A stretch of DNA of 63,275 nucleotides, counting the filler, from Bigelowiella natans CCMP2755 (lineage: Eukaryota > Protista > Cercozoa), in assembly GCA_000320545.1 (NCBI GenBank). It is 5 parts of 5 records of this genome, joined end to end, with 100 filler letters (N's around TTAATTAATTAA, not from the genome) between each part and the next. Parts side by side here need not be neighbours in the genome. Positions count along the whole stretch, not along the records: positions 1 to 25,312 come from ADNK01001917.1; positions 25,413 to 56,829 come from ADNK01000842.1; 3 more parts are not named here. One strand, given 5' to 3'. The notes below the pieces were generated by a model, which made no database searches, was not told the DNA's origin, and was given only the letters and a program-made list of their open reading frames with translations. The translations under genes were made by a program, and so were the position numbers. This document shows, piece by piece, positions 4,303-47,383 of this stretch. Every line of letters starts with the position of its first letter. Position 1 is the stretch's first letter.

Positions 4303-5029
4303 GTATACATTTGGACATTTGTTTATTGCGATTTAGAGACGTTGGTAGTCCTGAGTAGAGGATCATGTAGGTGATGAGCTAGGTTAGTGATTACAGCAGA
4401 TAATGTAGTCAGAGATTCGCATATAACTTATTTTATGAATATATTTATGTAATTGGATTAATTTTTATATATGATTAACTTGGTATAAGTGAAATAAGAG
4501 ACTTTATGATGGTAGATAGATTTAACTAGTTAACAAAGACAGAGACCAGATTTAACAAATAAGACAGCAATGCTTCCAAAGATATGATCTCATGCCCGCG
4601 ATTTCCTATATCGCTGTGCTTCTCTACATCATGCTAGCGTGATGCAAGTGTCGCACCGTTTAAAGGTTGACAGTCGCTTTCATTGATCATTTGCAAGCAT
4701 GCTAGCATGGCGTCGAGTGAATCGCACATAAACACTTAATTCCTAGCTAGCTAGCTTCAACACACGGGCACATATACATAGATAGCTACATGCACATGTA
4801 GAGCTGACTCGTAAATCTCAAACATCAACAATAATCTTGTTGCGGCAATGCTAGCATTAATTTCTAAAAGTGCGACGGCTGTGGGTGACTACATATTTTG
4901 AGGAAGCTCTCCTGTGCAACGCTGACAACTTAGCTGTTCACAATTCTACACGCGTGAACAAGCAGGTCTTCTCTAAGCTTAAATAACTCTAATGACGCAA
5001 CGTTTGGGTATTTAGTTAAACTTAACCAG

Positions 5030-6927
5030 TTAATTACGAGCTTTTGCTGCTGGACTGACACATCGCCCTGCGGGTGTACTCATAACATCCTTTCCACCAC
5101 TTGAAGGATGGAAAACCACCCCGAAATGGACATCCTTTGATCGAAAGTAACTGTAACTATTATCAAATGTGATCAATAAGTGTCCCGTAGATTTAGCTTC
5201 GAATGTTCCTTCATTTTGTGAGATTTTCTTAGAGTCTACTATTTTCTCCTTTGTGCCATTTTTCTCATCAATCCATTCAATTTTCAATGAAATGTCGTAT
5301 GACTCTAGTTTCATTAGCCAGACATACTTGCCACCTTTTGGATCATCACATTTACTCTTAAAAGAGTACAAATCTCGTGCTGCCACATTTTGAATGGAAA
5401 GCCCGTCGTCATTATCATTGTCATTGCTATCTGAATTAACTTCTGCAACTGGAAGTTCTATTTGATTTTCCCCTCCCCATGCAGCTGGTAGAACCTTCGC
5501 ATCCATGACTTCGTGTGCCAAATCTGGAGTGCCAGATGATGCTTGAATCTTTTCTTTTGTTCTGTAGTGTTGCAGCAAACTTGTAAGTATGATCGCACGT
5601 TTCTTGAATCAGTCAATTAATAATCATAACGTGACCGTGGATCGATAAAAGGTGCAAGCATTTTGAAGAGCAGAGGAACAACCCAGGGTGTATTTAAAAG
5701 GAATATATACGAAACAGTTTCAGGATAATTTTGCTTATCAATTTGCGATGTCATTTTCATGTACCTAAGTAGAAAATACAATGATGAAATTAAGGTTTAT
5801 GTATTACATAATGATCCTCACGGCATAATGTGCCGAAATGAAAAGCCCATCCCCTCAAGGTCAACTAAGACTATAGCTTGATAAATGGGTTTTTTGAGGG
5901 CAATAGCTCTTTTCCTCAATAATTCCTAAACAAAATGATAAAATGATGGTTATCTTGAATTCATTCTATGTTGATCGGAGTTATTTACAATAGTCTTTTC
6001 AACTCTCCACTTGTGATGCATACGCCATTCCTCTTTAGAAAAGGATTTGATAAACTGCAATTTAGGGAAATCAATTTTAGAACTCGGCCAAAGATGAATT
6101 ATATGATACCTCTTTAACTGCAATCTTTCCCATACGGGCTATGACCACTGGTCTCCCCTCTTTGTCGTCTCCGCATAGGCATGATGGATATAGCTTCTCT
6201 GCGAGTTTGATCTCATCTGCAATTGAGGAAGACTGGAAATATATCTTCTCCCAACATTATTGTAATGGCAACCTTGATTTTTTTCTTCCCACTCTATTAG
6301 CTTATCGATTTTTTCATCCTCTCTCCATTTTGCCATAGCCTGTTCAAAAACTGTTAGGATGGTGGAAAAAACCGTTCCAATTTTGTACAGCACTCTGTAT
6401 TGATTTAGGGCATCCTCAATAATCCATTGCTTTCCTGAAAGAAATCTAAAAACTAGAAGAGAAGTAAACTCAGTGCATACTCAATAAAATTCACTGAATT
6501 GGAAGTTGACATACGCGTAATGTCGTCTTGAATTCCTGAGTATTGTGGGACACCGGACTTGGGTATTCCCTGTGTAGGCAAATTTGCATCGAATTTTCTT
6601 GGAAGATTCTTCTAGCTAAATAAATTACTAGCTTTTCTTTGAATGTGTCGAAGAGTTTCTTCTGATCTGGCGAAAGTTTGAGCATGTGAAGCCTATAATC
6701 ACATTTGAACACATTGACTGTTCAAAATGTGTAGCATGCAGAACAAAGCACAAAGCGCATTTTGGCGCTCATCATTCGGCGTACATCGATCCCACATCCT
6801 TGCACTCCTCAGGACTTAGCCGGGAGTGCCACAGCTTCTTGAAGAAGAGTTTGACCTCCTTTGGATCGCCACTTCCATCCGTTGGTGGTGACGATGCAGT
6901 CAAAGATTTCAGTGTGGTGCCTTCCAT
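5030..6927 (-). CDS. SEC14-like CRAL-TRIO plus GOLD domain lipid-binding protein with short AT-rich introns
   Basis: Exons encode VLRFLSGKQW, GDDKEGRPVVIARMG, IVLVDLEGMG, NYPETVSYIFLLNTPWV, RTKEKI, LPAAWGG and the GOLD motif LLITFDNSYSYFRSKDVHF. Confidence 0.9.
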
Positions 6928-7613
6928 TGTTCTGAATGTGGTTCAGCAAACAATCTTTCCGAAACACTCAAAGTCTTTGTCGCAACCAAAAAATTGAGAG
7001 CTTTTCAGTTGTGACCGCTCTGCAGACCAGAACAATGAAGGCAAATCAAACAAAGCGACAGCTCACTGAGCATGTTCTCCAATCCAATTTGCATCGATTT
7101 TTGTGAATCAATCAACTCAACAACCAAAATGATGGATGCTGCTTCACTTCATGATCACCTCGCTGCGCATTGCAAACTGTCGTTTTGGTTCGTCTGAATC
7201 CGACAATCCACGGCGCTGAGCAGCGCTTTTTGCCGTGTTGCCTTCAATGAATGACTGAAATGAGTGACATTCGTGAGTGTGACGTGAATGACAATGCTGT
7301 GTGTGCTGTGCAACAAGACAAACCAAGACAGACGAACACAGTGGAGGCAACTTCTGAACTTGTTCTCAGAGTGCCAGATGAGTGTGCTGCACAGGGCTGG
7401 CTTCAATTCATTGCTGTTTGCGACTGTTTTCACGTGCAGCAACAGAGTGTGCAATGCTGACACATTTGCCAGTGGTGTTGAAATGTTTTTTTGGTCATTT
7501 GATTTTCAAAATCGTCGAAGAACTTGAAAAAACGATGCTCATGATGAGAGCAACCTCAACTCAATCTGTTTTTTGTTTTGAAGATGAATTGTGCTGCTGC
7601 ATCTGCGGATGTC
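6819..7613. other. TpA-free tract, 795 bp
   Basis: Read line by line, there is no TA dinucleotide between the TA at 6817-18 and the TA at 7614-15. The ORF-track peptides lying within it contain no Tyr. Confidence 0.9.
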
Positions 7614-7880
7614 TAATGCGTTGAGTGTGGCGCACGGGATCACCATGCAACACATGCACTCCACTGTGCTAGTATGCACAAAAGTGATGGGCACAAATCA
7701 TGTGCAAATGGTTCTCATTTTTTGTGGCCTCCATCTGCATCAGATGTAGCCAAATAACACATCACAGGAACATCATAGTGACTATGAACTTAATAAGTGG
7801 CATCCCTTTTATGTATAGAAATGTAAAGGTCACAAGTAAACACAGTACAAGGAAGTTATACTTCTCGCTCTGTAGATGCT

Positions 7881-9264
7881 CTAAAATACTTTTGGGTCCT
7901 CAATAAACCTAAATCGACTGCCGGGTGTATCCAGAAAGCACTGTGGATACTCCTTTCTAAGCAAAGTAAGGTCGTCATTATGTTCCTTGAAGAAGTCCAC
8001 TACCCTTTGCGAAACTACTGGTTGCTTATATTGACCGCTGTTCGCATTGAATGTCTGGCTAAAGTCTCGATGAGGTAACCCAAGGTGCTTCGCAACGGCG
8101 CCCATCGTCACTCCAGGCTCGAAGAGGAGCTGTTGAAAGCTCACAATAAGGAATTGTTCCGGCTTAAAATGTTGCAACCAGTGGCGCAACTGCAAGGAGT
8201 AAAGCCCTCCTTCAAGTGCCTTACATGTTGTTTCTGGGAGAACCTTGGAGGAGAGGGACGCTGAGGATTCAGCGGCTACTTTCTTGGTTGAAAAGCTTTT
8301 AATACCTTCATCTACAATTGCTTCCCAAGTTTTGTTCTCAAAATTTGCCCAGTGGGAGCGTACACCATGTTCGTATTCAGACATTGCACGGAAGATGGGA
8401 TTGCGTAGAACAGCAACAAACTTAATCGCCGAGGAGTTGATCCCCAATTCAACCTCGTAGAATGTTTTTAGGAGTTTTGGCGTGCTTGTGTCACAAAGAT
8501 AGTTAGGGGTCCCATCCATTAATAGAGAGTCAGTTGGGCAAACATCAAAGTGTGCGGAATAATGTGCAATCCCGTCCCTCAATTTTTCTGGTGTCGCGTG
8601 GTCAAAAAAGTGCTTTTCCTGTTAATAATAATAGGTCATAGATAAATGCATTATTGATTATACTAAAGTCATAGTATATATCAGCGCAGGATCTCAATTG
8701 ATGCACTCTTTCTGAAATAGAAGTTTCACTCAGATTTGTAACACTTTTTGTTCATAACTTTCAATTTTTCACCGACTCACTTGCTCTGTGTAGAAATTTG
8801 TTTAAATCGGCTAACTCAAATATTTTCTAGCTCAGTGAGAAATATATGGAAAAATGCAATCTTCATAAATTTATACAGATAGTTTACTTCAGCCGATCAC
8901 TTCATAGATTGTCAAATGTTTTTACAGCATGTAAGGGGCACCTTTCTGTAGAAACCCGGTTCACCCGCTAAGGATTTTCCCGGACACATATCCGACTTTG
9001 GCCATTCCTCTAAGTTCTTGAATAAGGAAGTGCTGCCACACTTTTGACCGCCAAGTAGAAACGCCTGCGGAACTCGAGGCTTTTCAGCCTAATTAAAAAA
9101 GCGTAGCGGAAAGTCAGACTTTTCATTTGGAGTTACATCGAGAACACCCCACCCCAACCTCTGTAAGACAAACGTACAAGAAGTCCGGAAGAGCGAGAGG
9201 TTGACTTCCAAACGGCAGTTGCTAGCGAGGGGAGCAACAGAGCGTACAGGAGCGTGGGAGTCAT
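7881..9264 (-). CDS. Secreted or lumenal sulfotransferase (heparan-sulfate 3-O-/N-sulfotransferase-like), 3 exons
   Basis: Signal peptide MTPTLLYALLLPSLATA; 5'-PSB motif FLLGGQKCGSTSL; KEKHFFD; DGTPNY; 3'-PB motif VLRNPIFRAMSEY; GLYSLQLRHWLQHF. Introns at about 9177-9090 and 8941-8620. Confidence 0.9.
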
Positions 9265-10773
9265 AGTCGCCAGCGTATTATTAAGACTTGGAATCTGGAA
9301 CGATAATTAATCATTGACCGTTCATCTGCCAAACATCGACGACAGCGAGTTGCTTCAATCAATAAATGTCCTGCAAACGTTCTCCTTCCAGCATACAGTT
9401 GGGGTTTATTCGAACACGGAGTAGCAACCTCAGTATTCCAGGGCAGTCTGCAGCCTTTTTCCCATTAAAAAGTCCTATGTTTGTATTGGAAGGCAGCCGC
9501 TCTTCGATGTCGCAAGCGAGCATGGCCGAAGACGTCTCGCCTTTATTTTTTCCGACGGCCGTTCGCACCACCGAAAAGAATAACTCTTTTCGGAATTTAT
9601 TTATTCGGCTATTTCGATTTGAAAATTGAAAATTCTGAAGGAGAGGAGGTGGAACTGCCTGGATTCTGGGGATTTTCTCATTGAGATTGTGAAAGTTCTT
9701 CCTCTTGTATGCTTTAGTTTAAAATATAGTACAATCTGTTCTAATACAAACAAATATACATTTTTTAGATATAAATTAGGCTTATACCGAGACGACTTAC
9801 TACATATTTGGGTCTTTACTAATTATTAAGATGTATTGTGCTGATTTCTATTTTGTTCACCCTGTAGATATTGACTTAAATTTTAATTATTTTAAAAAAG
9901 TACATCATTATTACCACTCTCAATGTATATTTACATTTTGATGAAACACTTTAAAATCTGAAATTTTGGAAGAAAGGGAGAGGGCTTCTCAGAATTGTAC
10001 ATCTCAATCTAGACTGAAAGTTCCGCGCTTATTTTGAAAATTGGCAAAATATCATGATGAGTGAGATGTAATTAGAGGGTTGTTTTGCCTTGTGATAATT
10101 TTCATGAAATTATTTAATTCTGAATCAAGCTGACGCACGACTAGGCTTCCATTGCCAACTACAGGTTCTGTGTGACTACTTAACCTACCCTCTTCTAAAC
10201 TCCTCTTTACTTCACGTTTAAAAAGATGAAGGTTAGGAAATATGATCATCTTTCTATGGCTTGATTCTAACCAATTGTCGGCGAAAACCGCGTTGCTGAT
10301 TTTCATTTAAGTGGAATTTCTAAATTTTGCAGGAGAGGCAAGCCGTCGGGAACGTTATCTTCAGCTCCAAACTTGTAGAAGGCGACCTCAGTATGTCATC
10401 CTTCCTCGAGGAGAAGGCTGCGAAGATACTCCGTAAATTTGATCCGCAAAGGTAGCAGTTTCTTTCGTGAGAGGGAAAATCGATACCCTTCAATTCACTC
10501 GATGGGCAGAGAACAGGATACATTTGAATCCTAATTATAGATTTTGAATGATTACTTATATATCTACATACGAAGAAAACACTCGCAAGATGTATTAAAA
10601 ATTTGCTAATCTTGAATATATGATGTATGGTATATTAGTTAAATAATGCGCTGTGATTAGAACATACGTTCAACCGTAAAATACTTTAATTAACTATATA
10701 TCGTTGTAATCGAACTAGAGTAAATAAAAGTCTCGAAACCTTTCCCATACGTACTTGATAAAAAAATATACAG

Positions 10774-12138
10774 GTTGAGGCAAAGATCTGACCATGGAGC
10801 TGACTTATTCCTGAACCCCCCTCTCCATTTATCTACGGGAGTACTAAGGGCCCTCCTTACCAACCACGGCCCACTTTCCCCTCCACCAGCTCCCACCCTA
10901 CGCAACTCCAAGAAAGAAGCCACTGCGGCGCCAGCATCAGCAGCACCATCGTTAGGAAAGCTATCGGTTGATGAGAATGCTTTAATACAAAAATTGGAGA
11001 CGACGACGGCAACTGCGAAATCGTCGTCAGCGTTGCAACAGCCTCAAGCAGTCCCCTTTGCTGTGCCAGTTGTTCCTTCTCTGGTGAATGTGCGTCGCCC
11101 TGCTGCAGCTGTTACTGCTGCTGCTTTTACGACTACCCCCACTGCCCAAAACCTCAAACCAAATGCAGCAAGAGAGTCGGATGATAAAGAGGCTAAGGGC
11201 AAGCTCGGAAAAGAGCAGAAGCGGGAAACCAAGGTTAGAGAGTGTACTAATAGTGTCGCTTAGGCTACTGCCGTCAACCACCACTTTTACCACTACTTAC
11301 ATAGCTGGTACATCAATAATTCCTGAGACACACGATGACCGAAATACATGCTGCCTGCATGTCGCAGGAGTAGATTGAAGTATATAGTATCCTAGAAAAG
11401 TAGCGTTTGGATCGTTATGGCAGTGTATGCTTGATAATTAGCTCCGCAAAGATTTAACGATTGCAAGATATCATCGTTTTATTTTCGTAGAAGCTCCCGA
11501 AGATTTGTATTCAGAGTTCCTCTCGAACAAACATCATCGTTTTTATCCCGTTCAAACATTTATATTCTCCATATACATTATCAGCACGACCTCGACAATG
11601 ACAGGCCAACTTCTTCGAATGATGCTCAAAGCACGGAGTTTCGCCCCCCTGCCCCTCATCCTACAACGTTGCCCTCCCCAGCAGAGGCTCTGGCCAGGCG
11701 CACTTGTCCTAAACCTGCGAAATCCCAGGTGGGATCCCGCAAACGACACGCCGTAGAGTTGTTTCCTACTCCGTCCTCGATAGCAACCAGCGGTACAACT
11801 TCAGCGAATCCGAAGGAAGAGCTTTTGGCCGCGACAGCTTCTTCTTCCTCCTCCTCGTCCTCTGCACCATCGTCGCTACGGTCGTCGCTTTCGTCAAAGC
11901 GAACTGCCTTTCGATGCCAGCACTGTCTCACCTTCTTCGACTCGGCCAAAACCCTTCTCACACACGTAAACATGAAACGTAGATAGTAAAAGTAGCCAGC
12001 TTCTCTGATGCAGAAGAGGAAAAAAATTGTTAGGAATGGGGAACGAGACTGAGAGGGAAAGGGAAGGAAAGAAACCTAAACTATCATAATTGGCTTTCGG
12101 GATTTCCTGAATCTGTTTGATCTATGTAGAACGGGCGT

Positions 12139-12183
<45 letters not shown>

Positions 12184-12943: not shown

Positions 12944-13138
12944 ATCGATAGATAGACTGGTTGAATTGCAATTGAGCAATTAAGGGAACGGAAGGAGCGT
13001 TAATTTTGGATTTATGATTATTCATAATCGGAATAAAAAGACGAGAAAATATAAAGAATGGAAGATGAGAAATCAAACACTCCGACAGAATTTAGATTAG
13101 TTAGCATAGCATTGAATGAACACACATACACACACATA

Positions 13139-13181
<43 letters not shown>

Positions 13182-13560
13182 TATGTGCTTGTGGTTGTAT
13201 GTCCCGTACATTAGTATCAAAGAGCCAAAATAGTTACACATGTCCGTAGTAGCCTTACTAGCTTGTATGTGCATGTAAAGCATACGTGTGCAGAGTATTG
13301 CGTCATGCAATGTCTCATGTACGATGCATTTAGCTGATGAATCCATGCATTGTGCTATATATCATCTATGATGAGTCCACGACACGGCATCACAATTTGA
13401 GCACCCTAGCACCGCGTGCGTGCACATCGAACAACGAGCATTTGTTGAGCATGGTACGTAGCATGGTGTAGTGTAGCAGTCTAGCTAGCTAGACAGTCAT
13501 AGCTCCGTCAAACCTGCTAGCCTGTAACGAATCGCCAGAACATGCATTTGGAAGCTTCAT

Positions 13561-30529: not shown

Positions 30530-31204
30530 TGATTATAGTGAGGAGATAAAATGATACGTACAGACGGCAACCACTACCGCCAGCGGCTTCAATAGGCGAG
30601 TTAGCCTGCTATATTGTTATGACGAAATTAAATTGCAACAACATTTGCATCTAATTTCATTTCCATTAGCGTAGCAGACATTGACAACGATTTGAATGCA
30701 TGATCAAATTGTCTAACAATGCGCTCGCGTGGACAACTCATGTGCCAGCGTAGGCATGCGATGTTTATGTGTATATCATGCAAATGGGCGCGTGCGCAGG
30801 GCGCAAAATTATCAACAGTAGATGCCTGACTAGCTGAAGCGCTGCACTCGATCGACCATTCTGCTAGCATTGACTAGCTGCGTAGCAACAAGGTGTGTGC
30901 CAATATTAATGAAATTTGCGACAGTACAGGCTAGCAGGGTCTACGTAGCGCACGCATTTCATTGCACACTGCATTTTGATGTATACACATTATGCACGGC
31001 GATGTCTGTAGTCGATTCATTTGTCAGCATGCGTCCGCCCATGCTAGCATGTGCGAATGGCGTCGCTAGCATATAGACAGCAGTGTGACATTGGCAAATA
31101 TTCCGCCAACGCGTACGTGTAGTAGTGCGTGGAATAGTGATCACGAGGACATGTGTGTAAATTTACATGTAGTAAACACACCACACGCCGCTAGGCTACG
31201 CTTG

Positions 31205-31829
31205 CTACTTGAATGCCATGAGCAAGGAGTCAAAATTGTAAGCATCGAGCGCCTTGGCACACGCCTCACTGTTCTTTGGCTCCACGCCTGGAATGACGCA
31301 ACAACAAGAGAGAAAAAGGGATGGAGTCAGAGAACAAACAGATTCCTCAACGTCGTTGAGAGTTCATAGATGCAGACACCAAGCCATTCCTTTTGTTTGT
31401 CATGAGAAGAGAGAGGGGGTAACAGATGTGAAATGTCTTTGGAGTGAAAAATGTGTGCGTGCATGTATGCTTGCCCACGAGAGCCAACGACCGGTCAGGA
31501 GCTTGTACTTGTCGACGTATAAGTCCATCACGATCCCCTTTAGGAATGCCAAATGCTTTGGCGCGCTCTTCATCTCTTCCCGTATCTTTTCCTCGTTGGT
31601 GAGAATGCTCTGGTACCTACACGATAGTATCACCGCAGAAAGTCACGAGGAGGCAGTATTGGGGCAGTTTGGTTTTCTGGAGCTACTGTTAGTTTTGTGT
31701 GTGAATGAATTTTTGATCATGTCGCCCATCATCATATGTGCACGTGTTTCCCGTTACTCTTGGCTGAGGAAAGACAATTCGTCTTCGTGCGATTGTATCT
31801 CCTGAGACGTCGATTAGCGCGCGCGCGCG

Positions 31830-31905
<76 letters not shown>

Positions 31906-32143
31906 GAGGAGAGAGAGAGAGAGAGGAGGAGGAGAGAGAGAGTAGTAGTAGTAGTACATGGTTACTATTGATGCAGCTAATGATGGTCATATTGGAGAAG
32001 TATAGTTGTATCGCATGCATAATACGTAAGCAAGCCTCTCCACTCATTGATTCACTCACCCGCTCATGCAGCCGATTTTATCTATAGAGTAAGAAGACAG
32101 GGTCCAACGGCACACACGCCCCCCCCCCCCACCCCATTTCCAT

Positions 32144-32183
<40 letters not shown>

Positions 32184-32423
32184 CCATCCATCGTATACTA
32201 CGTACAAAACACTTAATATTGAGTTCCTTGGTAACCATGACACTCCTCATCCTCATCATCATCACCATCATCATCATCGTCGTGGTCGTCATCGTCATCA
32301 CCGCCGTCGTTTGTGGACGCATGCACGCAGTACCCGAGGTCTCAGCATCTTCAACATGTGGAAGATGCTCTCCTTTTTGGCGTCCAGCTGGATCTCGATC
32401 CTCACCTGAGACCGATCACATAT

Positions 32424-32494
<71 letters not shown>

Positions 32495-32615
32495 GCCATT
32501 CACTACAGAGCAATAATGGGGACAGGAGGAGGGGGGGGAAAGAGTCGAGGAAGGCTGTGATGTGTAGTTATAGTAGGATAATTGAATGACAGTACGCAAG
32601 CCCTCCTATCTGCCA

Positions 32616-32712
<97 letters not shown>

Positions 32713-33085
32713 GAGAGAGAGAGGAGCAGGCACCTGCCGCTTCGTCGCTTCCCTCGAGATGACTTCCTTTATGATCGTAATCACGGTCACTGATTCGGAG
32801 ACAAATGAAGCCTGCAACGATAGACAGACAGCAGCAATATAAACCAGCATAGAAATCCCTCAACAACACCAAGCCAAACAGATAACAAATGAGTTCTCCA
32901 CCCCCCCCCCCCCCCCCCCGTCCTCTCTCTCATTTGAGTTTACGGTGCAGGATCCTCCGATTTGCGTCTGTATTTACCTTCCCCTTGCAGTACAAGCACG
33001 TTAGTGTGGAGTCGATGAAGCAAGAACGATATCTGACCAGCAGGGTGGTATTGATGATGTTGATGATAATGACGATGACGATGCT

Positions 33086-33116
<31 letters not shown>

Positions 33117-33844
33117 ATTCAGCGATGAAGATTCTCTACTACCCTAGCTCCGCACGGTCGGAGGAGAGGCGGGCAGGGATCCCTGGAAGCACGATCGATA
33201 TCCTATAAATTCTTACGCTCAGATCTCTACCACGACAACAGCCGAACATATTGAGGCTGTGCTACGACTACTACTACAACGACAACAACAGCTGCCGCTA
33301 CTGCAGATCTCTTACTCCATTACCAAGCATGGACTTGAGCACGTGAGAAGTCGCCCGTGATGTCCAGCGTATTCACTGGCGCTCCTAACCAACAAAACGC
33401 CAATAAAACACCACGCCGTGACATGACGGAAAATAGCTGATGATATTCCGTGCAGTCCCCAGCGCGTGTGTGCGTGTGCGTGTGCGTGTGCGTGTGCGTG
33501 TGCGTGTGCGTGTGCGTGTGCGTGTATGTGTGTGTGTGCGTGCAGATCATGCGTTGTTGCACCTTCTTGGAGTTTCTTAGCTTCTGCATAGTCCACTTTG
33601 GCGTGGAGCGATAGCGGCTGACGATCGTGAGACGAAACAGAAGATAAGAAGATGAAGAAGAAAAGGAAGAAAAAGAACAAACATGAGAATAAAGGACGAG
33701 GGCGGACGATGCCAGAGTCAGCATATTTGATAATGATGATGATGGCGGTGTCAACACTAACTGAACGACGTAAACACGACATCCTTCTGCTCCTCCTCCT
33801 CCTCCTCCTACCACTACTACTGCTACTACTTCTACCAATTACTA

Positions 33845-33878
<34 letters not shown>

Positions 33879-34060
33879 TAATTAGAAGATGCTGAAACCT
33901 TGACTGGCACTTGGAGCCTCTGGGATGTCTTTGGAGACGTTTTAGGGATCACATACGCCGATATCGTGCCGAACTGACCCTCCACCGTCCGAAGCCGTAT
34001 CCCTAAAACGATCGTCATTATCTTCATCATCATCACCATTACACACCGCCATCGTCGATT

Positions 34061-34098
<38 letters not shown>

Positions 34099-35641
34099 CA
34101 ATATATTTTTTAAATATGCGAGTATTATTATTTTCAGGGTTGGGGGGCAAACTGAACTAAGCTTTGTCGTCCTCGTGACGCAAGTGTACGTGGCCAGCAC
34201 CGCGCTCTTTTCCTTGCGGTCAGCCTCCGTCTGCGCCCAAACAGCAGCAGCATCGTAAGGGAGGGGAGACGGTTGTTTTTACCACATGGGGCTGGTGAGA
34301 AAGGGTTCAGTCTTTATTTGAGCTGCTGTGCTGACATTGGGATGATACAGCTACTTCCCCCTTACCCCCCTCCTCCTTCTCTACCTACTGCCGCTGCGAG
34401 TGGTTGCAATTATTGCTGCACACGGCTACTACTACCTGACTGAGGAGTGCCTGGTTGGTGTCTGTTTCCATCAACAGCAGCGGGACGTCGCTGTGCAGCA
34501 CTACCATCTGATAATGACGATGGCGATGATGAGGATGGCGATGGCCACCAGCGGGCGGAGTCGAAGAATAGGGCATGCGACGACAACAACCAGTCCACAA
34601 GGAATGATAGACGAGCCCGTAGACTTGCAACGGCGCAACAATGATGATGCAGCAGCAAAACGCATTGTTCGTTGTCACTTTGGCGACATCATCATCATCA
34701 TCATCATCATCATCATTATCGTCACCATTTATGAACAGCAGTGTGCTATACCCCCCCTCCCACCCCCCCCCCTCCTCTCTCCCTCACCTCGATCGGCAGC
34801 TCGATCTCTATGGCTAGTGTGTAGCAAGCGTTCTCCTCGTCCAGCTTCATCGAGTAGTTCATGTTGAACTGCTTCTGCGCGGCGATCGTCTGCGACGAGG
34901 CGGAGCTGAACTTCGTCTTCATGTCCTGCAGCAAGTGCGGTGGCGGAGGGGGGGGGTGGGGTGGGCGGTGGTTTCACCAAGGGCGGAAAAGACACTCAAT
35001 CTATGCACGTCTCGGCGACAGCGGCAGCAGTAGCTAGCAGCACAATCTCACGCAAACTTTCCCCTCCCGACACACAATGAGGACCACGAATAGAGAAGGC
35101 TTCGCAGCATTCAGATGGCGATCGTATCGAGTACTGTCAGCACTCACTGTTATCACCATTACTGCTATTATTACTAGTAGTCCCTATTATTGTTGTTGTT
35201 GTTGTTATTATTGTTATTATTATTATCACTTTGATCTCTTGCTGTAGCGCCTGTATGTCCGCCTCGAGCTTTAGCGCTTCTGCGGAGCTGGCCGCTGATG
35301 ACGACGATTTTGCATCACCGCCCTTTTGGTTATTCTTCGTCCTCCTTTTTTCTTTGCCTGCTGCTGCATCACCATCATTATTTAGTCCTGCGCTGGCCAT
35401 CTTATCCTCCTCCTTAAACGTCAACGACACCAGTCGCCCAGAATACCTAGACCACGTATAGTGGAAGAAGAAGAAGAAGAAGAAGAAGAAGAAGAAGAGG
35501 AGGAGGAGGAAAATATGAGGAAGATGATCATTAACATGATTACGGCGATATCAATGGTAGCATTTGGGGGAGGCTCTTGACAACAAAAGAAGCAGAGGCA
35601 ATACGGGAATCAACATCATTGCCAAGAAGCTTGGACAGCGC

Positions 35642-35675
<34 letters not shown>

Positions 35676-36150
35676 TACATCCATACCCACACATCAATAG
35701 CAAGTATTTATATGGTACGTGTGTGTGTGTGTGTGTGTGTGTGTATCATGTGCATTTTTATTCCGTATGCGAGGGTATACGCACGTGCTGGCGAGTAGGT
35801 CGGTATTCATGGAGACGATGTTGCCTGGTGGTAGGAATAAGAACGATTGGCCAAAAAACCGCAGCATGCAGACAGCAGGAAGGCGATATTCAACACATCA
35901 TTAGCTTCTTGATTGTAGTGTCTCATAACGTATAAATACTAGGGTATGTATGAGGAACGTGGGCATTCAAATCAGTGAGCTAGTAATAGTGCGGATGGAT
36001 AATATATTGCCGTGAATGACGCTTGTGATCGTCTCGCTGCTGATCTGCTCCGAATACTTCAAGCTCGGCCCGTCTGCGGTGATGTTCAGCACCTACGACG
36101 AACGACGACAACGTGGAGGAGGAGGAGGAGGAAGAAGCATTTGTATCCCT

Positions 36151-36193
<43 letters not shown>

Positions 36194-37376
36194 CTCTGCT
36201 TGCTCTGACTCGCTGAACTCTTTCTTTCTATGTCGTCTCCGGGGATCGCAGGCAGCAACGTACCTCAATGCTTCCGTCTTCTCTCGCGACGACGACGTCG
36301 GGCACACCTTGTATATTGATTAAGAAGAACAAAGACAACTGTTAGAATCGCGCGGACCTGTATATCACCGATATATTGTTGCGTCTTACTCTCCCACCCC
36401 CTCTCTCCGTTGTTTCTTCCCCATGCGTGCAATAATGAATAGCTAATAAGACTGCCCCGACGACATCCTCCAACCATCACAAATCTCTCTCTCTCTCTCT
36501 ACATATATATTAATATATATAGTGATATTTGTTTATCGAATGGTAGTAATAATGATTATGGCGGCGTTATGAAGACACACCATCTTGGAGAACATCTACG
36601 GCATCCAGGGCAGTGATGGCAGCTTTCTTCCCGTCACCCTTATACATCCAACCCGGCCGGATGCCCCCTCCCTTTCTCACGTTGATCTGGCCAACTTTTC
36701 CATTATCCGTGCCATAGACGAGGCCTCCGACGGGCTGTATAAATATAAATATAAGTATATATGACGGAATGAAAGGATGTTTTACGTGACTGATGCGACG
36801 ACGACAAATCAAGAAGAGGAAGAGGGGGAGGGGGAGGGAGGGGGGGGGGCGTTGATGATGAAGCTCTTATGTGTTGTTCTTTGTGTACATATAAGATTAT
36901 ATAGTTTGTTGGGAAAAGACGCTAGATTTCTCTCACCGTTTCTGCATCTCGGTTGATCTCAGCCTCAAGTGTAAGTGCGGTCACAGAGCCAGGAATCTTC
37001 GGATGCGCTATCATCTTAGTACCTGGAGGAGGAGGAGAGGAAAGAAGAACAGGAGGAAGCTGAGGAGGTGATTGTATGAGGGTTATGATGAAGCTGCTGC
37101 TACTAAGTAGGAGCAAAATAGGAGGGGGGGGAATAGGCCACATCTAATATTGTGTCCATTGAGGATATTGTCCTTCTCCATCATTAGCATCGAGCTCACA
37201 CTTACCATCAACGATGCGGATATATCGATCTTCGCATCCCAAAGCGACCACGATGGCACCCATGGCACCATTCTCTGATAAGTGTGGCATTGGGCACATT
37301 GCATGGATCACATCCTGGGAATTGAAGAAACCCTTCTCCGTAACTTTGCTACCTTCCGCCTGCATAGTCAAGCAAC

Positions 37377-37417
<41 letters not shown>

Positions 37418-38423
37418 ATTATTCTTCACAAGCCCAATAGTGAACTGCTAGCCAATGGTATGTGGTAAAAGAGCAAGGCACACGCATGAAATACAGAGTT
37501 TGGGAGCTTTTCCATGTCCTCGCCTCTAAAGTCTTGGTCGTTCCTCAATTTCTCGCTTATTACGCTGTTACTACACTACTACTGCTGCTGCTGCTACCTC
37601 AAAATGGTTGATGTTAAACTCGCAACACGTGTAGATGCTTGGGTTTTCGACAAAAAGGGCCTTGATATCGTCGGTGATGGGGGCCTCGAACGCGAAGAAG
37701 GTCTTTCCCTTCTTTGTCATAGCCTTGATTTTGTTGCCATGAGCGACGAATAGCTTATCCTATACGGTATCATATGTACCCAATTTATCAGCGCTGGAGA
37801 TGAGCATCATGCCGGAAAACGGCACAGCATTATAATTGAATTAATCACGCCATTTTTGCTAGATTTTGGCATTGCCTTTGACCCTGGAGGACCTCCTAAG
37901 GAGAGTGCGGTTACGCCTTTCCGTTCTTGAGTCTGGGATAAGATCTTCGGAGTTCCACTCTTAAGGGTGATGAACTGGACCTGAGATGGCGGGCGCTTGT
38001 GAGACTTGAGTACGTCCAAGAAGGCACTATAGCAGTAACTGTCATGACTTCCCCAGGCCCTCCCTCCCTCCCTCCTTCTCTATATATCTCTCTGTTCTGC
38101 TCGTTAAACTCTCTTAATCACCAAGCCAGATTTGTTCCCAAACACGATTTTTTGGATCTTTCGCTTTGCGGACGGGAACGCAGCGAGGCATCCTCTTTCG
38201 TTGGACCTACGAAGGAAGCACATATACAACACAGCCAGAATTGTAGATATAACGATGCTAAACAGATGATTTTGTGCATCATATCCCCTCAATATCTGCA
38301 TAGACACACGTGAAGCAACTCTCCTCCATTATAACTGCATGAATCAACACATCTTCTTTTGCCGAAGTATAGTCGTTACCCGCCGAGGAATAGGAACTCC
38401 TTCGTGTCGAACACGTAAGACAT
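31205..38423 (-). CDS. BBS7: Bardet-Biedl syndrome 7 protein (BBSome subunit), multi-exon
   Basis: QKIVFGNKSG, ALSLGG, DKLFVAHGNKIKAMTKKGKTFFAF, VALGCEDRYIRI, LVYGTDNGKVG, and C-terminal PKHLAFLKGIVMDLYVDKYK...LDAYNFDSLL. Confidence 0.9.
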
Positions 38424-39902: not shown

Positions 39903-39944
<42 letters not shown>

Positions 39945-40154
39945 ATTTACCTATATTTTAAGATTGACAACGCTTGGGGGGGGGGATAACAAGAGCAAAT
40001 TTATACATATCATGTCAACTCAGGTGTTCGTCTCAGAGGGGAAGCCTCGGAAGGGCCTGAAATACGCAAAAGTCTTCGACTCTGTCACTGATAAAAACAT
40101 GTAAATATGCGTAGATATTCATATACACATGCACGAATCGTATTGTAGCTGTAT

Positions 40155-40202
<48 letters not shown>

Positions 40203-40856: not shown

Positions 40857-40893
<37 letters not shown>

Positions 40894-42589
40894 CGCATTC
40901 TATATATGGCACCAGGGCGTTACGTGCACATGCGCTTTCTCCGTCCTCATGCAGACGCCAACATTGACATCGACAGGGTGCGGAATGCAAAGCAAACATT
41001 CTCTCTCCCTCTCTCTCTATGCTCTATGCGCTATGCTCTATGCTCTATGCTTTCCCCCCCTCCCTGGTCTCGAATCTCTTCCCCTTATCATGCTACTACC
41101 TAAGTACATGGAGCTTGTCGAGCCCGTAATTGTTACAAGCTGCTGTTGCCGTACTTGTTATTGTCGCGCTACTCCAACAACCTGCTGCACAAACTGATCT
41201 TAGCCGCACCACCATCACCATCTCCACTACCTCCTCCTCCTTCCTCCTCCTCCTCCTCCGCTAGATTCACATATTGGGGGTGGTCCCTGAGAGTGCAGAG
41301 TTCTCCAGGATTACGTCGTCGTCGTCGTCAACGACGAAGCCTCTTGCAGGCATTGAGGTATCGTATGTATTCACCAGCAACGAGGAGGAGGAGGAGGGGG
41401 AGGAGGAATGCAACCACAACGACTAACAAACACTACGAACGACATTCTGCTAGCAGCTGCGCTGAGACAATGAGAACCGTAGCAGAACGGCATGCAAATA
41501 GTAGCGGGAAGGCTGAAAATAACAACGGAGAAAATGCGGCACTTATCGTATCTCCTTATTTCGGTCGTTTACGTTGTGCTCGTGCACGCAGGTGGGGAGG
41601 GATGCATGCATGGCTCTGGGCGCATCGAGACCTCCTTTGTCCACGTTCAATGAATTCAGGTATAGTAATAGACATTGCTATGCCGCGCCCTTGCCAACCC
41701 CACTGCGTGATGTCCCTCCATACAAATCGACGGTGACGAGGGGGGGGGGGGAGGACACGCTGTTTCGTCGTCTGGGTCCATCTGTCGCTCTCTGAGAGGA
41801 AGTGCAATACATTCGTCGTGCATGCGTGTGTACCTGCTCCTCCTCCTCCTGCTGCTGCTGCTGCTGCTGCTGCGGTTTCTTCTTCCTCCTCTTATTGTCG
41901 ATGTTGTTGTTGTTGTTGTTGTATCAGATTCGATCTGATGGAGCGTATTCAGAGCGGCACGATAGCGCTGCTCCTTCTCCCCACCCCCGCATCTCAGCGC
42001 GAGATTGAGGGAATGAACCAATTTCTCGCTGGAGTGGCCGAGATCGCACAGAGGGAGTGGACTGACTCTGGTGTGCGCGACCGCGGGGGGAGGGGGGGGG
42101 GGGGAGAACAGCACGCACACACACACACACACACGCAAACACATGTGCATAGAAGCCAATACGGGTGAATAGAGTATATACTTGCCGTCCTTCTATGCTA
42201 CTTGCTTAAAGGCCTCGAGTTTTACTACCACGTCTTCGATCTGGGAGCTACGGATCCAACGACGCGGGCTGCCTCGTTCCTCCGGGTGATATCTATTAAC
42301 CATTCAAAATACACAGAAGAGAGATTAGCGTTGTTAGTAATGATAACGGCAATTTGGAAAAATGACGATAACTTTCGTCCCGCGGTCGTGTGTCATAGGC
42401 GTTTTCCATGCAGACACATGTGAATACAAAAATATACAAAGAGTATCATGTGTATATATGCGTATATAATTACATATATATATATATATATATTTATTTA
42501 TTTATTTATATGTATATCGTAAGGGTCTTTTCGTGTCGCAAGATCACCCAGGAATGGTGCTTGGAATAAGGGAGAGCGACGGTGGGACA

Positions 42590-42628
<39 letters not shown>

Positions 42629-42743
42629 CGTGTGTGTGTGTGTGTGAGTGTGATTCTTTGTAACATCGGATTGAACCTGGGTCTTTATTACGATAGCTTG
42701 TGTGCTGATATGGATATGTATACCAATCGTTGTTATCATCACC

Positions 42744-42775
<32 letters not shown>

Positions 42776-43654
42776 TATCACCATAGGGACCAGATACCTA
42801 TTCGACTCCTCCTCCTCTTCGGGAGAGAAGAAGAAGAAGGAGCTTGCTACGACGGCAGACGACTACGAAGATATATCGTAAGCAGCTGACAAGCAGAACT
42901 GTTTTGATAAAGATAGTGGTGGCGTTGCGACTATGTGATAATGAAGATGAATGGGTTGTTAACGTCCCCTCCCCTCCCCTCGTCCATGCATCGCGTTGCA
43001 TGCGTCGTGCGTCATCACGGCGTGCACGCAACAGCTCAGCTCCCTGACCTTTGAAATATATACAATGCCCAGGGTGGGGTTCATGTCGTGGTGCGAGATG
43101 TACACGCGCGGGGAGGTCGCTCAACACTGGAAGTCGGAGAAACTTCTCGGTAAGATTGTCCCGCCGCTGCCATCTTCCACGGAGATCATCACACGGGAAA
43201 GCTTTCAGGTGGGGAGAAGTAGGAAGAACCGATGTCTTCTAACTACCAATTAGTGGGAGTAACAATACCCGAGAAGAAAGTAGCCTTTTTGTCCTCTCCT
43301 TCTCCTCTTCCTCCTCCTCCTCCTCTGCTCGCTGCTTATTCCCCCCGTCATTCTGCCAAGTTGCTCACCATCTCTCCCTCTCCCTCCCCCCCCCTCTTTC
43401 TCTCTCCTCACCCCTCCCCCTCCCCCCCCCCATGTTGCTGTTCTCTCCGTTGCTATTACTATTACTATCATCCTTGGTTATCACGCCATCGCTCGTCGTT
43501 GGTAGGAGAGTCTGGCAGCATGCAGAGGAAGCTCCCTAGTGTGTGTCCATTACAACGGTAGGTACGGGATGGTAGAGTAGATGTTGATAACAATAGCTGG
43601 AGGCTATACACCGAATCGTTTGCAAAAGCCCACAAATACTCGAACAAACACACA

Positions 43655-43688
<34 letters not shown>

Positions 43689-44318
43689 ATCATAATCATC
43701 ATTATCATCATCACCATCATCGTCATTGTCATTCGCCTCTCATTGAATTACATGACGATGGGCCTACTTCTTGCTCAGGCCTGCAGCCTTCCCCCTCGCT
43801 CCTCGCGCCTCCTCGAGGCGGTAGCTCTGACGCCAAAGGGGGGATGCTGGTACTACACACGACGCATATTCGCACCACGTGATAGTGCCTTTCTCGAGCT
43901 GAAGGCCACTCATCTGACTCTTGTTGATGTCTACCGCTGCTGCTGTTTCCTCTCACCGCAGGGTGATGCTGAGACCGATGGGGGGGCAAGGTGCATATGC
44001 GTGTGCGCGTGTGTGGATGCAGTTGTGACAGCAGCAGTCAGGAAGACGAAGAAGACCGCCGCCGCGGTAAATCTCTATCCATCTTCCTCATAAATTAAGT
44101 ATATTTGTGCATGCGTGTGTGAGTGTGGGTGTGACTATGAGTGTGCGTGCTCACTTCTATTCTCTCTCCTCTGTGCTGCATTGCGAAGAAGGAAGAGGAA
44201 GAGACGTCGCCGCCTTTCAAGTGCTTTTTGTTCGACTACGAGGCCAATGATGTAGAGCCCAAGGTCGGTTGGAAGCCGTATGTGCGTGTTTGTATGTGTG
44301 TGTGTGTGTGTGTGAGAG

Positions 44319-44357
<39 letters not shown>

Positions 44358-45328
44358 TTTTTAATACTTATTACCCCTCATCCGTCTCCTAATTCTTGTT
44401 CCTCGTACAAAAGTGGCTCCCTGACGAGTTGGCGCCCCCGTTTTTAGCCTGGTATCTACCTACGCACGCACTGCACTTGCATACACACCTATCAGTATAA
44501 ACGATACGTGAACATCATATACATGTGCGTGTGCGTGTGCGTGATTCTATTTTCGAGCAATGGGGACCTCCTTCTCCTCAGCCCGTGTTTCACCGCTATC
44601 CTCATCATTCTTGTCATACGAGTGGATTGTTGTTGTTATCCTCGATGCTCCTCCTCCTCCCCCGCCTCCTCCTCCTCCTCCTCACATTTGTTTCTTTCCC
44701 CGTGCGCTCCCACCACCCCCTCCTCCTCCTCCCCGAAGGTTCTCCAAAGCAGGACACCCGCCCGGGAAATCATCGGCCAAGAAGAAGAAGAAAAGTCGGC
44801 GTTAGATATCGGATTAGAGATAACGAACGAACGAGAACGAACGGAAAGAGAGCCAGAGAAGCCAACTCGAAGAATTGCTGATGCCAGGAGGGAAGGGAGA
44901 GGAGAGCGGAGAGCGGAGGGAGAGAGAGAGAGCGAGAGAAAGAGAGGCTTATCCTTGCACTATAGGGGAGTGGTCCGCTTGATCATATCACATCCCACAC
45001 GTGTGCTGAACATGCTGCAACTCTCTCTCTAGGAGGAGGCAAGGGGGGCGCATCGTCGTCGTCGTCGTTTGCTGGGCGGATGTTAGGAAGGCAGGTAGTA
45101 GTAGTAGCCAGCCTGTCTTGCTGTGTGCATTCAAACGCCAGAAGAAGATTTTGAGTTATACTTCGGTAGTGATAGCGTAGTGAGCGCAGCAGATAGAGCA
45201 GCAGCAGTAGTAGTAGTAGTAGTAGAAGAAGAAGAAGATGATGAAGAAGAAGGAGCCGTCATCGTCGTCGGCTCTAGAGATGTAAAAAACTGTTACAACC
45301 GACCAACATGCAGTAACCGATGCAACAT

Positions 45329-45365
<37 letters not shown>

Positions 45366-45571
45366 AACACACCAACACACCAACGTACACACACACACAC
45401 ACACACGCGTCATGGCTGCTGGCCTGTCTGCTCAATAGGAGAAGAAGGCGGTGATGCACGGATCGCGCGTTCGGTCGAAGGGTATTCTTCAGTAGTAGCC
45501 TACTACTAAAACAACAGAAATGGAACAGAAGAATATGCAGTACAACTGTCATAATCTCTACATATATGTAA

Positions 45572-45615
<44 letters not shown>

Positions 45616-46541
45616 AGGAGTCCGCATACACACACACACACACACACACACACATGCATGCATGCATGCATGCATATATACGCGACATACTATTGACCTT
45701 CGTCTTCAAGTATCATTCAACTACCCCAAACTTCAGTTGATACGGTGAATTTGGTCAAGTTTGTGCACAAGAAGCTTTCCAAAGTAGTAGCAGAAGTAGT
45801 AGTAGTAGAAGCAGTAGTAGCCGTAATAATGATAGTAACAATGGTGGTAGTTCACATACACACACACACACACACTTACATGAATTGAATGTATAATTTC
45901 ATAGATATCCGCATAAGCTTTCTTTCCTAGCCTCCCCTTTTCACCTTTGTAGCACTCATAAAAAATCCCCTCCTCCTCCTCCACCACCACCTCCTCCTCT
46001 TCCTCATCACCATTGTCACCATCATCATATCTTCTTGGCACGACACCACACCACCACCACCACCTCCACAGCAAGACAAATTCCCATTAAACGCGGCGCT
46101 GGAGGATGCAGAGAGATTCGACAACTCCATGCCTGCCAGAATAAAGGTAGTAGCAGAGAAGCCGATCTCAACACGCACTAGCACGGCTATTTTGTCGCAT
46201 TTAGAAAACGCAAACACACACACACACACACACACACACCACTAGGCGCGTAGCGCATACGCGAGCATCCGTTGAATCGTCTGTATCTTCGGCAGGCATT
46301 TCAGATCCTACTGCTCCTCCACCGTCCTTCCCCTACCGCAACGACGCCCAGCATTGGCAATAGTGATGGTGGTGGTGGTGGTAATAATAATAGTAGTAGC
46401 GGTGGTAGTGGTGGTGAAAGCGTCACAACTCTGGATGCAAAGCTGACGGCAGAGGTATGTATTCAAAACGACAAGAATTCGACCGAACCCTACTCATTCA
46501 TCCCATTCACCACCCCCCTTCCCAACGCGCATGTATCACCA

Positions 46542-46580
<39 letters not shown>

Positions 46581-46857
46581 GTTAGGTTGTATTGTTGTTT
46601 CTTCAGATGGAGGCCGATTTAACGGATGTCCGCGAAATGATATGGGACCCCGATAAAGGTGCTGAATCGACGGAAATTGATGAGATGCATGTGTGAGTGG
46701 AACATAAATATACAACCTCCTTCTCACAGGCGAAGCGCTTGCGGTTGCTGTCGCAAAGGTGGAGGCCTCCATGACGAAAACGGAAACCAGCGCAGAGGGA
46801 GAGTCTGAAGCGGGAGAGGGGGGGGGGGGATGAATTGCCAAAAGTTCCTAGAAAATA
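38590..46857 (+). CDS. Large spliced protein with an N-terminal galactose-binding-like beta-sandwich and putative thioredoxin/PDI-like segments; boundaries uncertain
   Basis: Phase-consistent exons EYGI|ENVLQDEGIHCSKPGK|NFDLLLEF...|LIRGSPACSAPLKNAI|VFVSE...GRYVHMRFLRPHADANIDIDR|IHILG. Later exons include FLFDYEANDV and NLVKFVHKK. Confidence 0.55.
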
Positions 46858-47383
46858 AAAATTGGATGCAGCTTGTTGTGCCTCGCATGTCGACCTTTAC
46901 TATGCGGGGAAAGCGCGCGCTCTGTTCCGCGCAATGAATTGCTGCAGCCAGCCGTCACAAACCTTAGGTCATATGTAATGCTTTGTAGAAATGCGCCATA
47001 ACAAAGTTTGAAGATGCACAGATATCATCCATCATCCTACTAAAACAATTTAAATATGAATTACATGCAGTACGATTCGTAGTACTGGCTATTTAGCTGC
47101 TTTGACAGCCTGTTGGTTATATATCGGGTTTCGAATTGTGCTTCATTGAGCTAAGTTGGTTGAGCATGCACTTGCGCATAGTTGCTTACAGTATTAAGAG
47201 GCTCGCTGTTACGTTAAATAACACGTATGTCTTGGACTGAATGGACTTGCAAAGCATATGTAGCTGAGCATCATTATCATTCGTCAATAACATTACGGCT
47301 CCGCGCGCAACTTTGCAGGAAAGACTTTTTCTTTGGATATGCAACATGCACATAGAATGCGGGTCAACGTTCATAATTATTTG

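What the first reader, a model, noticed from the sequence alone, without database searches (positions are those of the whole stretch)
4560..47380. Candidate system: TpA-directed DNA mark or mutator at gene 3'/termination zones
Seen: the deserts and the zones rich in alternating purine-pyrimidine palindromes all lie downstream of gene 3' ends (4560-5030, 6819-7880, 13240-14725, 16050-16900, 20740-21290, 30530-31200, and weakly 46860-47380). None lies at a divergent promoter. Established: in kinetoplastids the modified thymine base J, made by JBP dioxygenases via 5hmU, marks Pol II termination regions; 5-formyluracil can mispair with G; Pol eta mutates WA to WG; TadA-derived deaminases prefer TA. 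Inference: a thymine or adenine modification at TpA marks termination zones here and leaves a T>C/A>G scar. No responsible enzyme is encoded in this window, and the head-to-tail junction at 26.6-27.2 kb is not depleted.
Basis: inference. Interest (0 to 1): 0.8.

Follow-up and report, generated by a model that had tools for sequence, protein, structure and literature searches.

The report
TA-erased patches in an algal genome
In the alga Bigelowiella natans two patches of about 1 kb have lost nearly all T-A steps, likely to a mutation process already reported in this species, one patch on a repeated transposon relic and one over the start of an active host gene, while the stretches behind gene ends keep their T-A steps and are a separate, unexplained feature.

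Summary
The window is Bigelowiella natans. The finding lumps two features. (1) TpA loss is real in 2 of 7 zones: 6819-7613 (0 TA, 60 expected) and about 13834-14725 (13 TA, 63 expected). It is TA>CA/TG transition on both strands: a 59-bp duplicate differs at 7 of 7 sites this way and its palindromic arms make TA the ancestral state. A 2026 preprint already reports this mutator in this species, and this scan found it before on other DNA. The second patch overlaps a high-copy terminal-inverted-repeat element; the first is single-copy and covers the 5' leader and first coding exon of an expressed Sec14-GOLD gene. (2) The other five zones lie at convergent gene ends and are not TpA-poor (o/e 1.01 against 0.73 at divergent promoters). 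They are GpC-rich, CC/GG-poor, CTAG-rich and purine-pyrimidine alternating, which transitions cannot produce. A base-J-like mark scarring termination zones is therefore not supported. Left open: editing of host 5' sequence, and the origin of the post-poly(A) signature. No genome was held, so no genome-wide test.

The parts
6819..7613 (.). TpA-free desert 1 (796 bp between TAs), CA+TG o/e 1.72, both CA (73 vs 46) and TG (96 vs 53) raised; no second copy seen
   Evidence: one record laid at 80% likeness in each of 2 DNA runs
6785..7241 (-). Sec14-GOLD exon inside desert 1: 5' leader plus first coding part (predicted start ATG 6927-6925, in frame across the 6693-6784 intron)
   Evidence: RNA joints; translation; WH..LSPE motif shared with the Gymnochlora orthologue P0010
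7242..7323 (-). TA-free leader intron of a long Sec14 transcript (GTTTGT donor, AAG acceptor; the other 7 introns hold 4-6 TA each)
   Evidence: (1 of 2 RNA runs)
4879..6927 (-). Sec14/CRAL-TRIO-GOLD host gene, expressed and spliced
7794..9264 (-). sulfotransferase gene (B. natans model Bigna1/77349); poly(A) end at 7794, 180 bp before desert 1
   Evidence: (poly(A) in 1 of 2 RNA runs), 49, 50
13498..14223 (.). non-coding element with terminal inverted repeats (MITE-like); ends and right half are high-copy; right half 13834-14223 has 3 TA against 25
13559..13617 (.). 59-bp palindrome, unedited copy (17 TA; hairpin z -4.98)
13775..13833 (.). 59-bp palindrome, edited copy (10 TA; 7 of 7 differences TA>CA or TA>TG; hairpin z -0.94)
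14224..14725 (.). TpA-poor flank beyond the element (10 TA against 37.7, 6 of them CTAG); includes a hairpin at 14400-14429 whose one mismatch is TA/TG, and the far 5' leader of the ubiquitin-like gene from 14495
4510..4880 (.). post-3'-end zone between convergent hydrolase and Sec14 transcripts: GpC 1.92, CC+GG 0.44, TA 0.94; single-copy
13240..13497 (.). RY-alternating zone behind the + strand C2H2 gene, TA 1.17, single-copy depth
16140..16900 (.). RY-alternating zone between convergent ubiquitin-like and syntaxin genes: alternation 0.71, GpC 1.75, CC+GG 0.37, TA 1.41
20740..21290 (.). RY/GpC zone at a convergent junction (gene models by eye), TA 37/35
30530..31200 (.). RY/GpC zone between a small + gene and BBS7 (-), TA 51/49
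46860..47380 (.). weaker RY/GpC zone at a convergent junction (gene models by eye), TA 39/43, no CTAG

Best explanation
The two TA-poor patches carry TA>CA/TG transitions on both strands and are likely scars of the TpA hypermutator already described in Bigelowiella natans, which likely works by deaminating the adenine of TpA in locally marked DNA, while the five zones behind convergent gene ends are not TA-poor and likely arise another way. Steps: (shown) TpA was replaced by CpA and TpG in two domains of 0.8-1 kb; (shown) one domain overlaps a multi-copy inverted-repeat element, the other is single-copy and runs over a host 5' leader and first coding exon; (from the preprint) such changes arise de novo at about 1000 times the background rate in viral insertions; (inferred) a domain is marked as foreign or repetitive, an ADAT2/3-like enzyme converts A to inosine at TpA, replication fixes G, and editing runs some hundreds of bases into neighbouring host DNA, sparing CTAG in partly edited parts; (inferred) desert 1 began on an old, now unrecognisable insertion that became the long Sec14 leader. 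The 3' zones are most likely unconstrained post-poly(A) spacer built up by slippage of self-complementary 2- and 4-base units (TAGC, ATGC, TACG), perhaps kept for termination or nucleosome exclusion (inferred, weak).
For: Species: P0018 (Bigna1/77349) matches the window at 98.8-100% over three exons. Desert statistics; desert 1 resembles fully edited AT-rich spacer in simulation (CA+TG 1.72 vs 1.72-1.83, AA+TT 1.28 vs 1.24-1.29). 59-bp pair: 7 of 7 differences (4 T>C, 3 A>G), and at one palindromic site the four arms read TA, TA, CA, TG. Repeat copies in DNA run X10: adjacent TG-to-CA double differences at 13866/7, 13925/6, 13943/4 and TA coexisting with CA/TG at 13797/8, 13799/800, 13912/3, 13986/7, 14121/2; CpG is not depleted there (1.16). 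Summed depth 18,577-30,223 against 77-96 for locus-specific contigs, 266 records laid. 1-kb windows meet the preprint's cut-offs at both patches. Preprint 10.64898/2026.01.13.699255. 3' zones: TA 1.01 at 5 of 5 convergent vs 0.73 at 5 divergent junctions; editing with or without decay leaves alternation at 0.46 and GpC near 1.0.
Against: No transposon or virus homology for desert 1: 0 Pfam hits in 6 frames, 0 viral or metagenome pattern hits, no second copy, so its foreign origin is assumed. Editing does not follow the element's ends: the left third and left flank keep TA (1.17) while the right flank has lost it. No new TA change was seen in 2 DNA runs over 3300-8700, so present activity here is not shown. 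13 of the 24 listed variant positions in the repeat fit TA/CA/TG interchange, but 45% of positions lie in such steps, so that count alone is not above chance; 16 variant rows were not shown. Desert 1 keeps no CTAG (0 against 3 expected). The deserts share part of the 3' signature (CC+GG 0.53-0.55). The enzyme is untested; sequence cannot tell A chemistry from T chemistry.
Confidence: 0.72

Rival explanations
1. Same mutator, but aimed at host DNA without any foreign insert: read-through from the upstream gene over an upstream start of the next gene marks a 1-kb domain at head-to-tail junctions, which is then edited.
For: Both deserts lie at head-to-tail junctions, end at or in the next gene's 5' region and hold long 5' leaders; desert 1 is single-copy, without homology to mobile elements and includes 107 coding bases with 0 TA against 5.6; the TA-poor flank 14224-14725 lies beyond the element end.
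Against: Desert 2 overlaps a repeat family whose other copies are also edited, so much of its TA loss is inherited; 26.6-27.2 kb is not depleted; convergent junctions, where overlapping transcription is most expected, are not depleted; n = 2.
Confidence: 0.17
2. One reading: a modified T or A at TpA (base J, 5hmU, 5fU) marks Pol II termination zones and leaves a T>C/A>G scar there.
For: All seven zones lie downstream of a gene 3' end, and the signature is stronger past the RNA-defined ends than in the 3' UTRs (GpC 1.92 and 1.75 vs 1.27 and 1.22). Compared with AT-rich spacer controls the zones have a lower TA share among TA+CA+TG (0.325 vs 0.452) and a CTAG excess (39 of 300 TA vs 8 of 360), which mild editing could add to.
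Against: TpA o/e 1.01 at convergent ends vs 0.73 at promoters; alternation needs more than transitions; CTAG is 38 against 6-16 in dinucleotide shuffles, a gain rather than sparing; J sits near G-rich, G4-forming DNA (PMC4344527 abstract) whereas these zones are GG-poor; no paper linking chlorarachniophytes to JBP/TET in the library.
Confidence: 0.05
3. The deserts are inherently TA-poor mobile DNA (selection against self-insertion at TA, or donor composition) plus ordinary CpG decay; no special mutator acted here.
For: TG/CA swaps are also the classic trace of CpG deamination; desert 1 has CpG o/e 0.67.
Against: TA is seen as the alternative state in copies; palindrome arms TA, TA, CA, TG; CpG o/e 1.16 in the element; host coding and intron DNA is also TA-free; the mutator is experimentally seen in this species.
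Confidence: 0.06

Closest known systems
TpA hypermutation of integrated viral DNA in Bigelowiella natans (Mettrop et al., bioRxiv 10.64898/2026.01.13.699255)
   Same: Same species, same change (TpA>TpG/CpA, both strands), patches meet its 1-kb cut-offs; the paper already extends the target to transposon-related sequences and reports 124 TpA-poor clusters.
   Different: Patches here are about 1 kb, below its cluster definition of three windows; one lies on a non-coding MITE-like family, the other on an expressed host 5' leader and exon. The main text has no occurrence of 'terminat', 'UTR' or 'promoter'; its supplements could not be seen and may list these loci.
Repeat-induced point mutation (RIP) of fungi (from own knowledge and the preprint's discussion)
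   Same: Dinucleotide-specific, both-strand hypermutation of repeats that can leak into flanks.
   Different: RIP is C>T at CpA and creates TpA; this removes TpA. The single-copy target also differs.
Base J of kinetoplastids (PMC4344527 abstract; listing)
   Same: Only the location of the second feature, behind convergent gene ends.
   Different: J is not TpA-directed, lies near G-rich sequence and is not known as a mutator (own knowledge); the zones here are GG-poor and not TpA-depleted.
Short inverted repeats at yeast poly(A) sites (PMC6420913 abstract)
   Same: Palindromic DNA concentrated at gene ends, proposed to lower nucleosome occupancy.
   Different: Yeast repeats are AT-rich and sit at the poly(A) site; here the signal is GpC/CTAG-rich and spreads 400-900 bp beyond it.
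MITEs of the Tc1/mariner or CACTA type (own knowledge)
   Same: Short, non-coding, terminal inverted repeats, many copies.
   Different: Superfamily unresolved: the ends read either as CA...TG termini with a 2-bp GT duplication or as a TA duplication edited to CA and TG.

Membership tests
B. natans TpA hypermutation (Mettrop et al.) | occurs in the B. natans nuclear genome | tested here: met
   P0018 Bigna1/77349 98.8-100% to the window
B. natans TpA hypermutation (Mettrop et al.) | TpA>TpG and TpA>CpA transitions, both strands, TA ancestral | tested here: met
B. natans TpA hypermutation (Mettrop et al.) | 1-kb rho TpA <=0.43 with rho CpA+TpG >=1.52 | tested here: met
   1 of 63 fixed tiles (7001-8000); sliding windows starting 6451-7101 and 13651-13851; fixed tile 14001 misses (0.37, 1.41); too short for a 3-window cluster
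B. natans TpA hypermutation (Mettrop et al.) | target is viral or other foreign/mobile DNA | tested here: inconclusive
   yes for 13834-14223; no sign for desert 1
B. natans TpA hypermutation (Mettrop et al.) | raised de novo rate | tested here: inconclusive
   no differences in 2 DNA runs over 3300-8700; desert 1 has no TA left to mutate
B. natans TpA hypermutation (Mettrop et al.) | ADAT-like DNA deaminase as the agent | not testable with these tools
   a hypothesis in the preprint itself
Base J termination mark | JBP1/2 and J-glucosyltransferase in the genome | not testable with these tools
   no genome held; no such gene noticed among the window fragments scanned
Base J termination mark | modified thymine detected at termination regions | not testable with these tools
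   needs chemistry or native long reads
Base J termination mark | sites near G-rich, G4-capable sequence | tested here: not met
   CC+GG o/e 0.60 at convergent junctions against PMC4344527 abstract
   0 of 5; o/e 0.84-1.15 against 0.55-0.78 at 5 divergent junctions
Fungal RIP | CpA>TpA direction | tested here: not met
   opposite direction
MITE | terminal inverted repeats, no coding capacity, high copy | tested here: met
   16 of 17 letters match between the ends; 0 Pfam hits; depth some hundreds-fold over locus contigs, a rough measure only
MITE | target-site duplication that assigns a superfamily | tested here: inconclusive
   two readings fit

The most novel reading that the evidence does not exclude
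The B. natans TpA mutator is not confined to foreign DNA: it marks domains of about 1 kb that take in the promoters, 5' leaders and first codons of active host genes and rewrites them, making it a chromatin-domain mutator that reshapes host regulation; and the same genome carries a second, undescribed sequence code (alternating, CTAG/GpC-rich, CC/GG-poor DNA) confined to the space beyond poly(A) sites that acts in termination or records a separate mutational process there.
Probability: 0.22. Interest if true: 0.72.

Novelty: new member of a known kind. Interest (0 to 1): 0.4.

Why it matters
The mutator itself is published and was met before in this scan, so the core is not new. The window adds a polarised, internal record of the change in a non-viral repeat family, which offers hundreds of copies for working out the enzyme's context rule and the timing of editing, and one case where the scar runs over an expressed host gene's leader and first exon, which bears on how the process is targeted and what it costs the host. 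The post-poly(A) signature was not found in the searches made and could be a cheap genome-wide test, but rests on five junctions.

Tried and rejected
No whole genome held, so no metagene plot and no proteome search. Pfam on 12 reading frames of both deserts: 0 hits. Rfam: 0 matches in the window. Metagenome scans for strain orthologues: 0 loci. Viral contigs: 15 pattern matches for the element end, none with further similarity by blastn, treated as chance; 0 for desert 1. Homology search with CA/TG/TA treated as equal found only low-complexity matches within the window. No long inverted repeat in desert 1 or the 3' zones above shuffles; short hairpins 28 vs 5-13 in 5 shuffles. Idea that the 3' zones are edited (TA)n runs: rejected, CG makes up 20% of YR steps in alternating runs where editing predicts none. 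Idea that cycles of editing and decay give the 3' signature: rejected. Link to giant-virus methylation motifs such as TGCA: rejected, TGCA is not above dinucleotide shuffles (50 vs 37-53). One junction (36330-36570) scored was dropped because it lies inside BBS7. Run X10 shows no cover over 14269-15654 and no listed holder is on record as RNA; neither is used as evidence. A possible sixth convergent junction near 57-58 kb lacks the signature but its gene ends are unknown and it borders an assembly gap.
Full report
Identity. No genome is held for this window. The sulfotransferase exon at 7884-8621 falls in a cluster holding the Bigelowiella natans model Bigna1/77349, which matches the window at 93.5-100% over three exons, 98.8% over the longest. 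The neighbouring Sec14-GOLD protein has its closest relatives in Lotharella, Gymnochlora and Norrisiella. The window is B. natans nuclear DNA.

Observation. Between the TA at 6817 and the TA at 7614 there is no TA in 796 bp, against 59.9 expected; the next longest gap is 187 bp. 13836-14725 holds 13 against 63. The other listed stretches are not depleted: 36/39, 58/51, 106/72, 37/35, 51/49, 39/43. What all seven share is low CC+GG (about 0.5) with high GpC and CA+TG. So the finding joins two features.

Direction of change. A 59-bp sequence occurs at 13559 and 13775; the copies differ at 7 sites, all TA against CA (4) or TG (3). Chance for this is about 1e-5 to 8e-3 depending on the transition share assumed. 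The sequence is a palindrome (hairpin z -4.98 for copy 1, -0.94 for copy 2); at one symmetrical site the four arms read TA, TA, CA, TG, which makes TA ancestral. A hairpin at 14400-14429 has a single mismatch, TA against TG.

Desert 2 is partly a repeat. Laying contigs at 80% likeness on 13180-16140 put 266 records of DNA run X10 there, with summed depth 18,577-30,223 over 13873-14268 against 77-96 for locus-specific contigs (the tool warns that depth is no copy number). The element runs from 13498 to 14223 with terminal inverted repeats agreeing at 16 of 17 letters and has no Pfam match. Of 40 variant rows shown (16 more hidden), 24 lie in the repeat and 16 in a paralogous exon. Thirteen of the 24 fit TA/CA/TG interchange, which alone is not above the 45% of positions in such steps. 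The telling rows are three adjacent double differences where the window has TG and most copies CA, and five dinucleotides where TA coexists with CA or TG. CpG decay could give the swaps, but CpG o/e is 1.16 in the element. TA loss does not follow the element's ends: the left third keeps TA (1.17), the right half has 3 against 25, and the 502 bp beyond the right end have 10 against 37.7, 6 of them CTAG. Survivors in desert 2 are CTAG in 7 of 13 cases against 94 of 2937 in background, as earlier notes of this scan also report. One of three RNA runs carries the ubiquitin-like gene's leader back to 14495.

Desert 1 is single-copy and transcribed. In two DNA runs only one record each was laid on 3300-8700, identical to the window. 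RNA-type runs (a guess by the tool, but they show GT-AG joints) splice 6785-7241 to the Sec14 exons in 2 of 2 runs and 7324-7451 through a further intron in 1 of 2; the sulfotransferase poly(A) tail is at 7794 in 1 of 2. The exon carries an open frame from ATG 6927 that continues in frame into the Sec14 body and shares WH..LSPE with the Gymnochlora orthologue, so the desert edge lies in conserved host coding DNA: 107 coding bases with 0 TA against 5.6. No mobile-element origin was found. Its composition is close to fully edited AT-rich spacer, with some extra GpC and CC+GG loss.

The 3' zones. At 5 convergent junctions TA o/e is 0.84-1.15 (pooled 1.01), GpC 1.64, CC+GG 0.60, alternation 0.589; at 5 divergent junctions 0.55-0.78 (0.73), 0.97, 1.08, 0.436. 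Gene ends are RNA-supported for the first two junctions, Pfam-supported for syntaxin and BBS7 and by eye for the rest; one scored junction was dropped as inside BBS7, and a possible sixth convergent junction near 57-58 kb lacks the signature. The signal is stronger beyond the transcript ends than in the UTRs. CTAG is 38 against 6-16 in 20 dinucleotide shuffles. Transitions cannot change the purine-pyrimidine string, and simulated editing, with or without AT-biased decay, leaves alternation at 0.46 and GpC near 1.0. These zones are therefore not a T>C/A>G scar. Against my reading: relative to AT-rich spacers they have a lower TA share of TA+CA+TG (0.325 vs 0.452), so mild editing on top cannot be excluded. 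My best guess, weakly held, is slippage of self-complementary units in unconstrained spacer, possibly retained for termination.

What is known. Mettrop et al. (bioRxiv 10.64898/2026.01.13.699255; parts 1-4 of 5 of the main text read; supplements closed and may list these loci) report de novo TpA>TpG/CpA mutation at about 6e-7 per site per generation in two viral insertions, 124 TpA-poor clusters, enrichment of transposon domains in TpA-poor genes, and an ADAT2-like candidate. The text has no 'terminat', 'UTR', 'promoter' or 'hydroxymethyl'. For base J I saw a search listing and the abstract of PMC4344527: J lies near G-rich sequence, unlike these zones. PMC6420913 (abstract) reports inverted repeats at yeast poly(A) sites. 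Passages of 10.1101/2025.11.19.688996 and PMC4738411 added nothing decisive. Searches found no description of B. natans host DNA modification, of this element, or of the 3' signature; the library lacks most subscription papers. Labels eIF3j-like, ZNF706-like and ubiquitin-like, and the facts on RIP and MITE superfamilies, are recalled and come from no call.

Verdict. The TpA loss is real and belongs to a process already described and already met in this scan. The link to termination zones and base J is not supported. Two leads remain: editing of an expressed host 5' region, and an unexplained post-poly(A) signature. Interest 0.40.

Noticed in passing
window 7242-7323 and 6928-7451: The long Sec14 leader uses a TA-free intron with a GTTTGT donor and AAG acceptor and holds 5 upstream ATGs in 442 bases; TA>TG/CA editing could create such ATGs and splice sites.
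   Followed up: partly
window 13606-13716 and 13775-13833: A lower-copy repeat (depth about 400-630 in X10) with 59-bp palindromic direct repeats sits inside the high-copy element, perhaps a nested insertion; its copies vary in editing state.
   Followed up: partly
window 15384-15562, 15912-15965: A second, expressed paralogue of the ubiquitin-like gene (21 differences in 179 bases) appears in 3 of 3 RNA runs.
   Followed up: no
window 16676-16700: Perfect 25-bp palindrome in the convergent zone.
   Followed up: no
window 31400-37800 (-) and 52400-56600 (+): Intron-rich BBS7 gene (Pfam E 4e-14 and 2e-11) and a likely ERO1 gene (weak hits, E about 0.01).
   Followed up: partly
window 57700-58200: Mild TpA dip (o/e 0.47) without CA+TG excess (1.16); does not meet the edited signature.
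   Followed up: partly
window 7451 and 14495: In run X15 both long leaders end in about 25 loose letters not found on the stretch; adapter, chimera or trans-spliced leader not resolved.
   Followed up: no
window about 25313-25412, 56830-56929, 59640-59739, 61867-61967: Four assembly gaps with an AT-only linker between runs of N; they add artificial TA and hide sequence.
   Followed up: no
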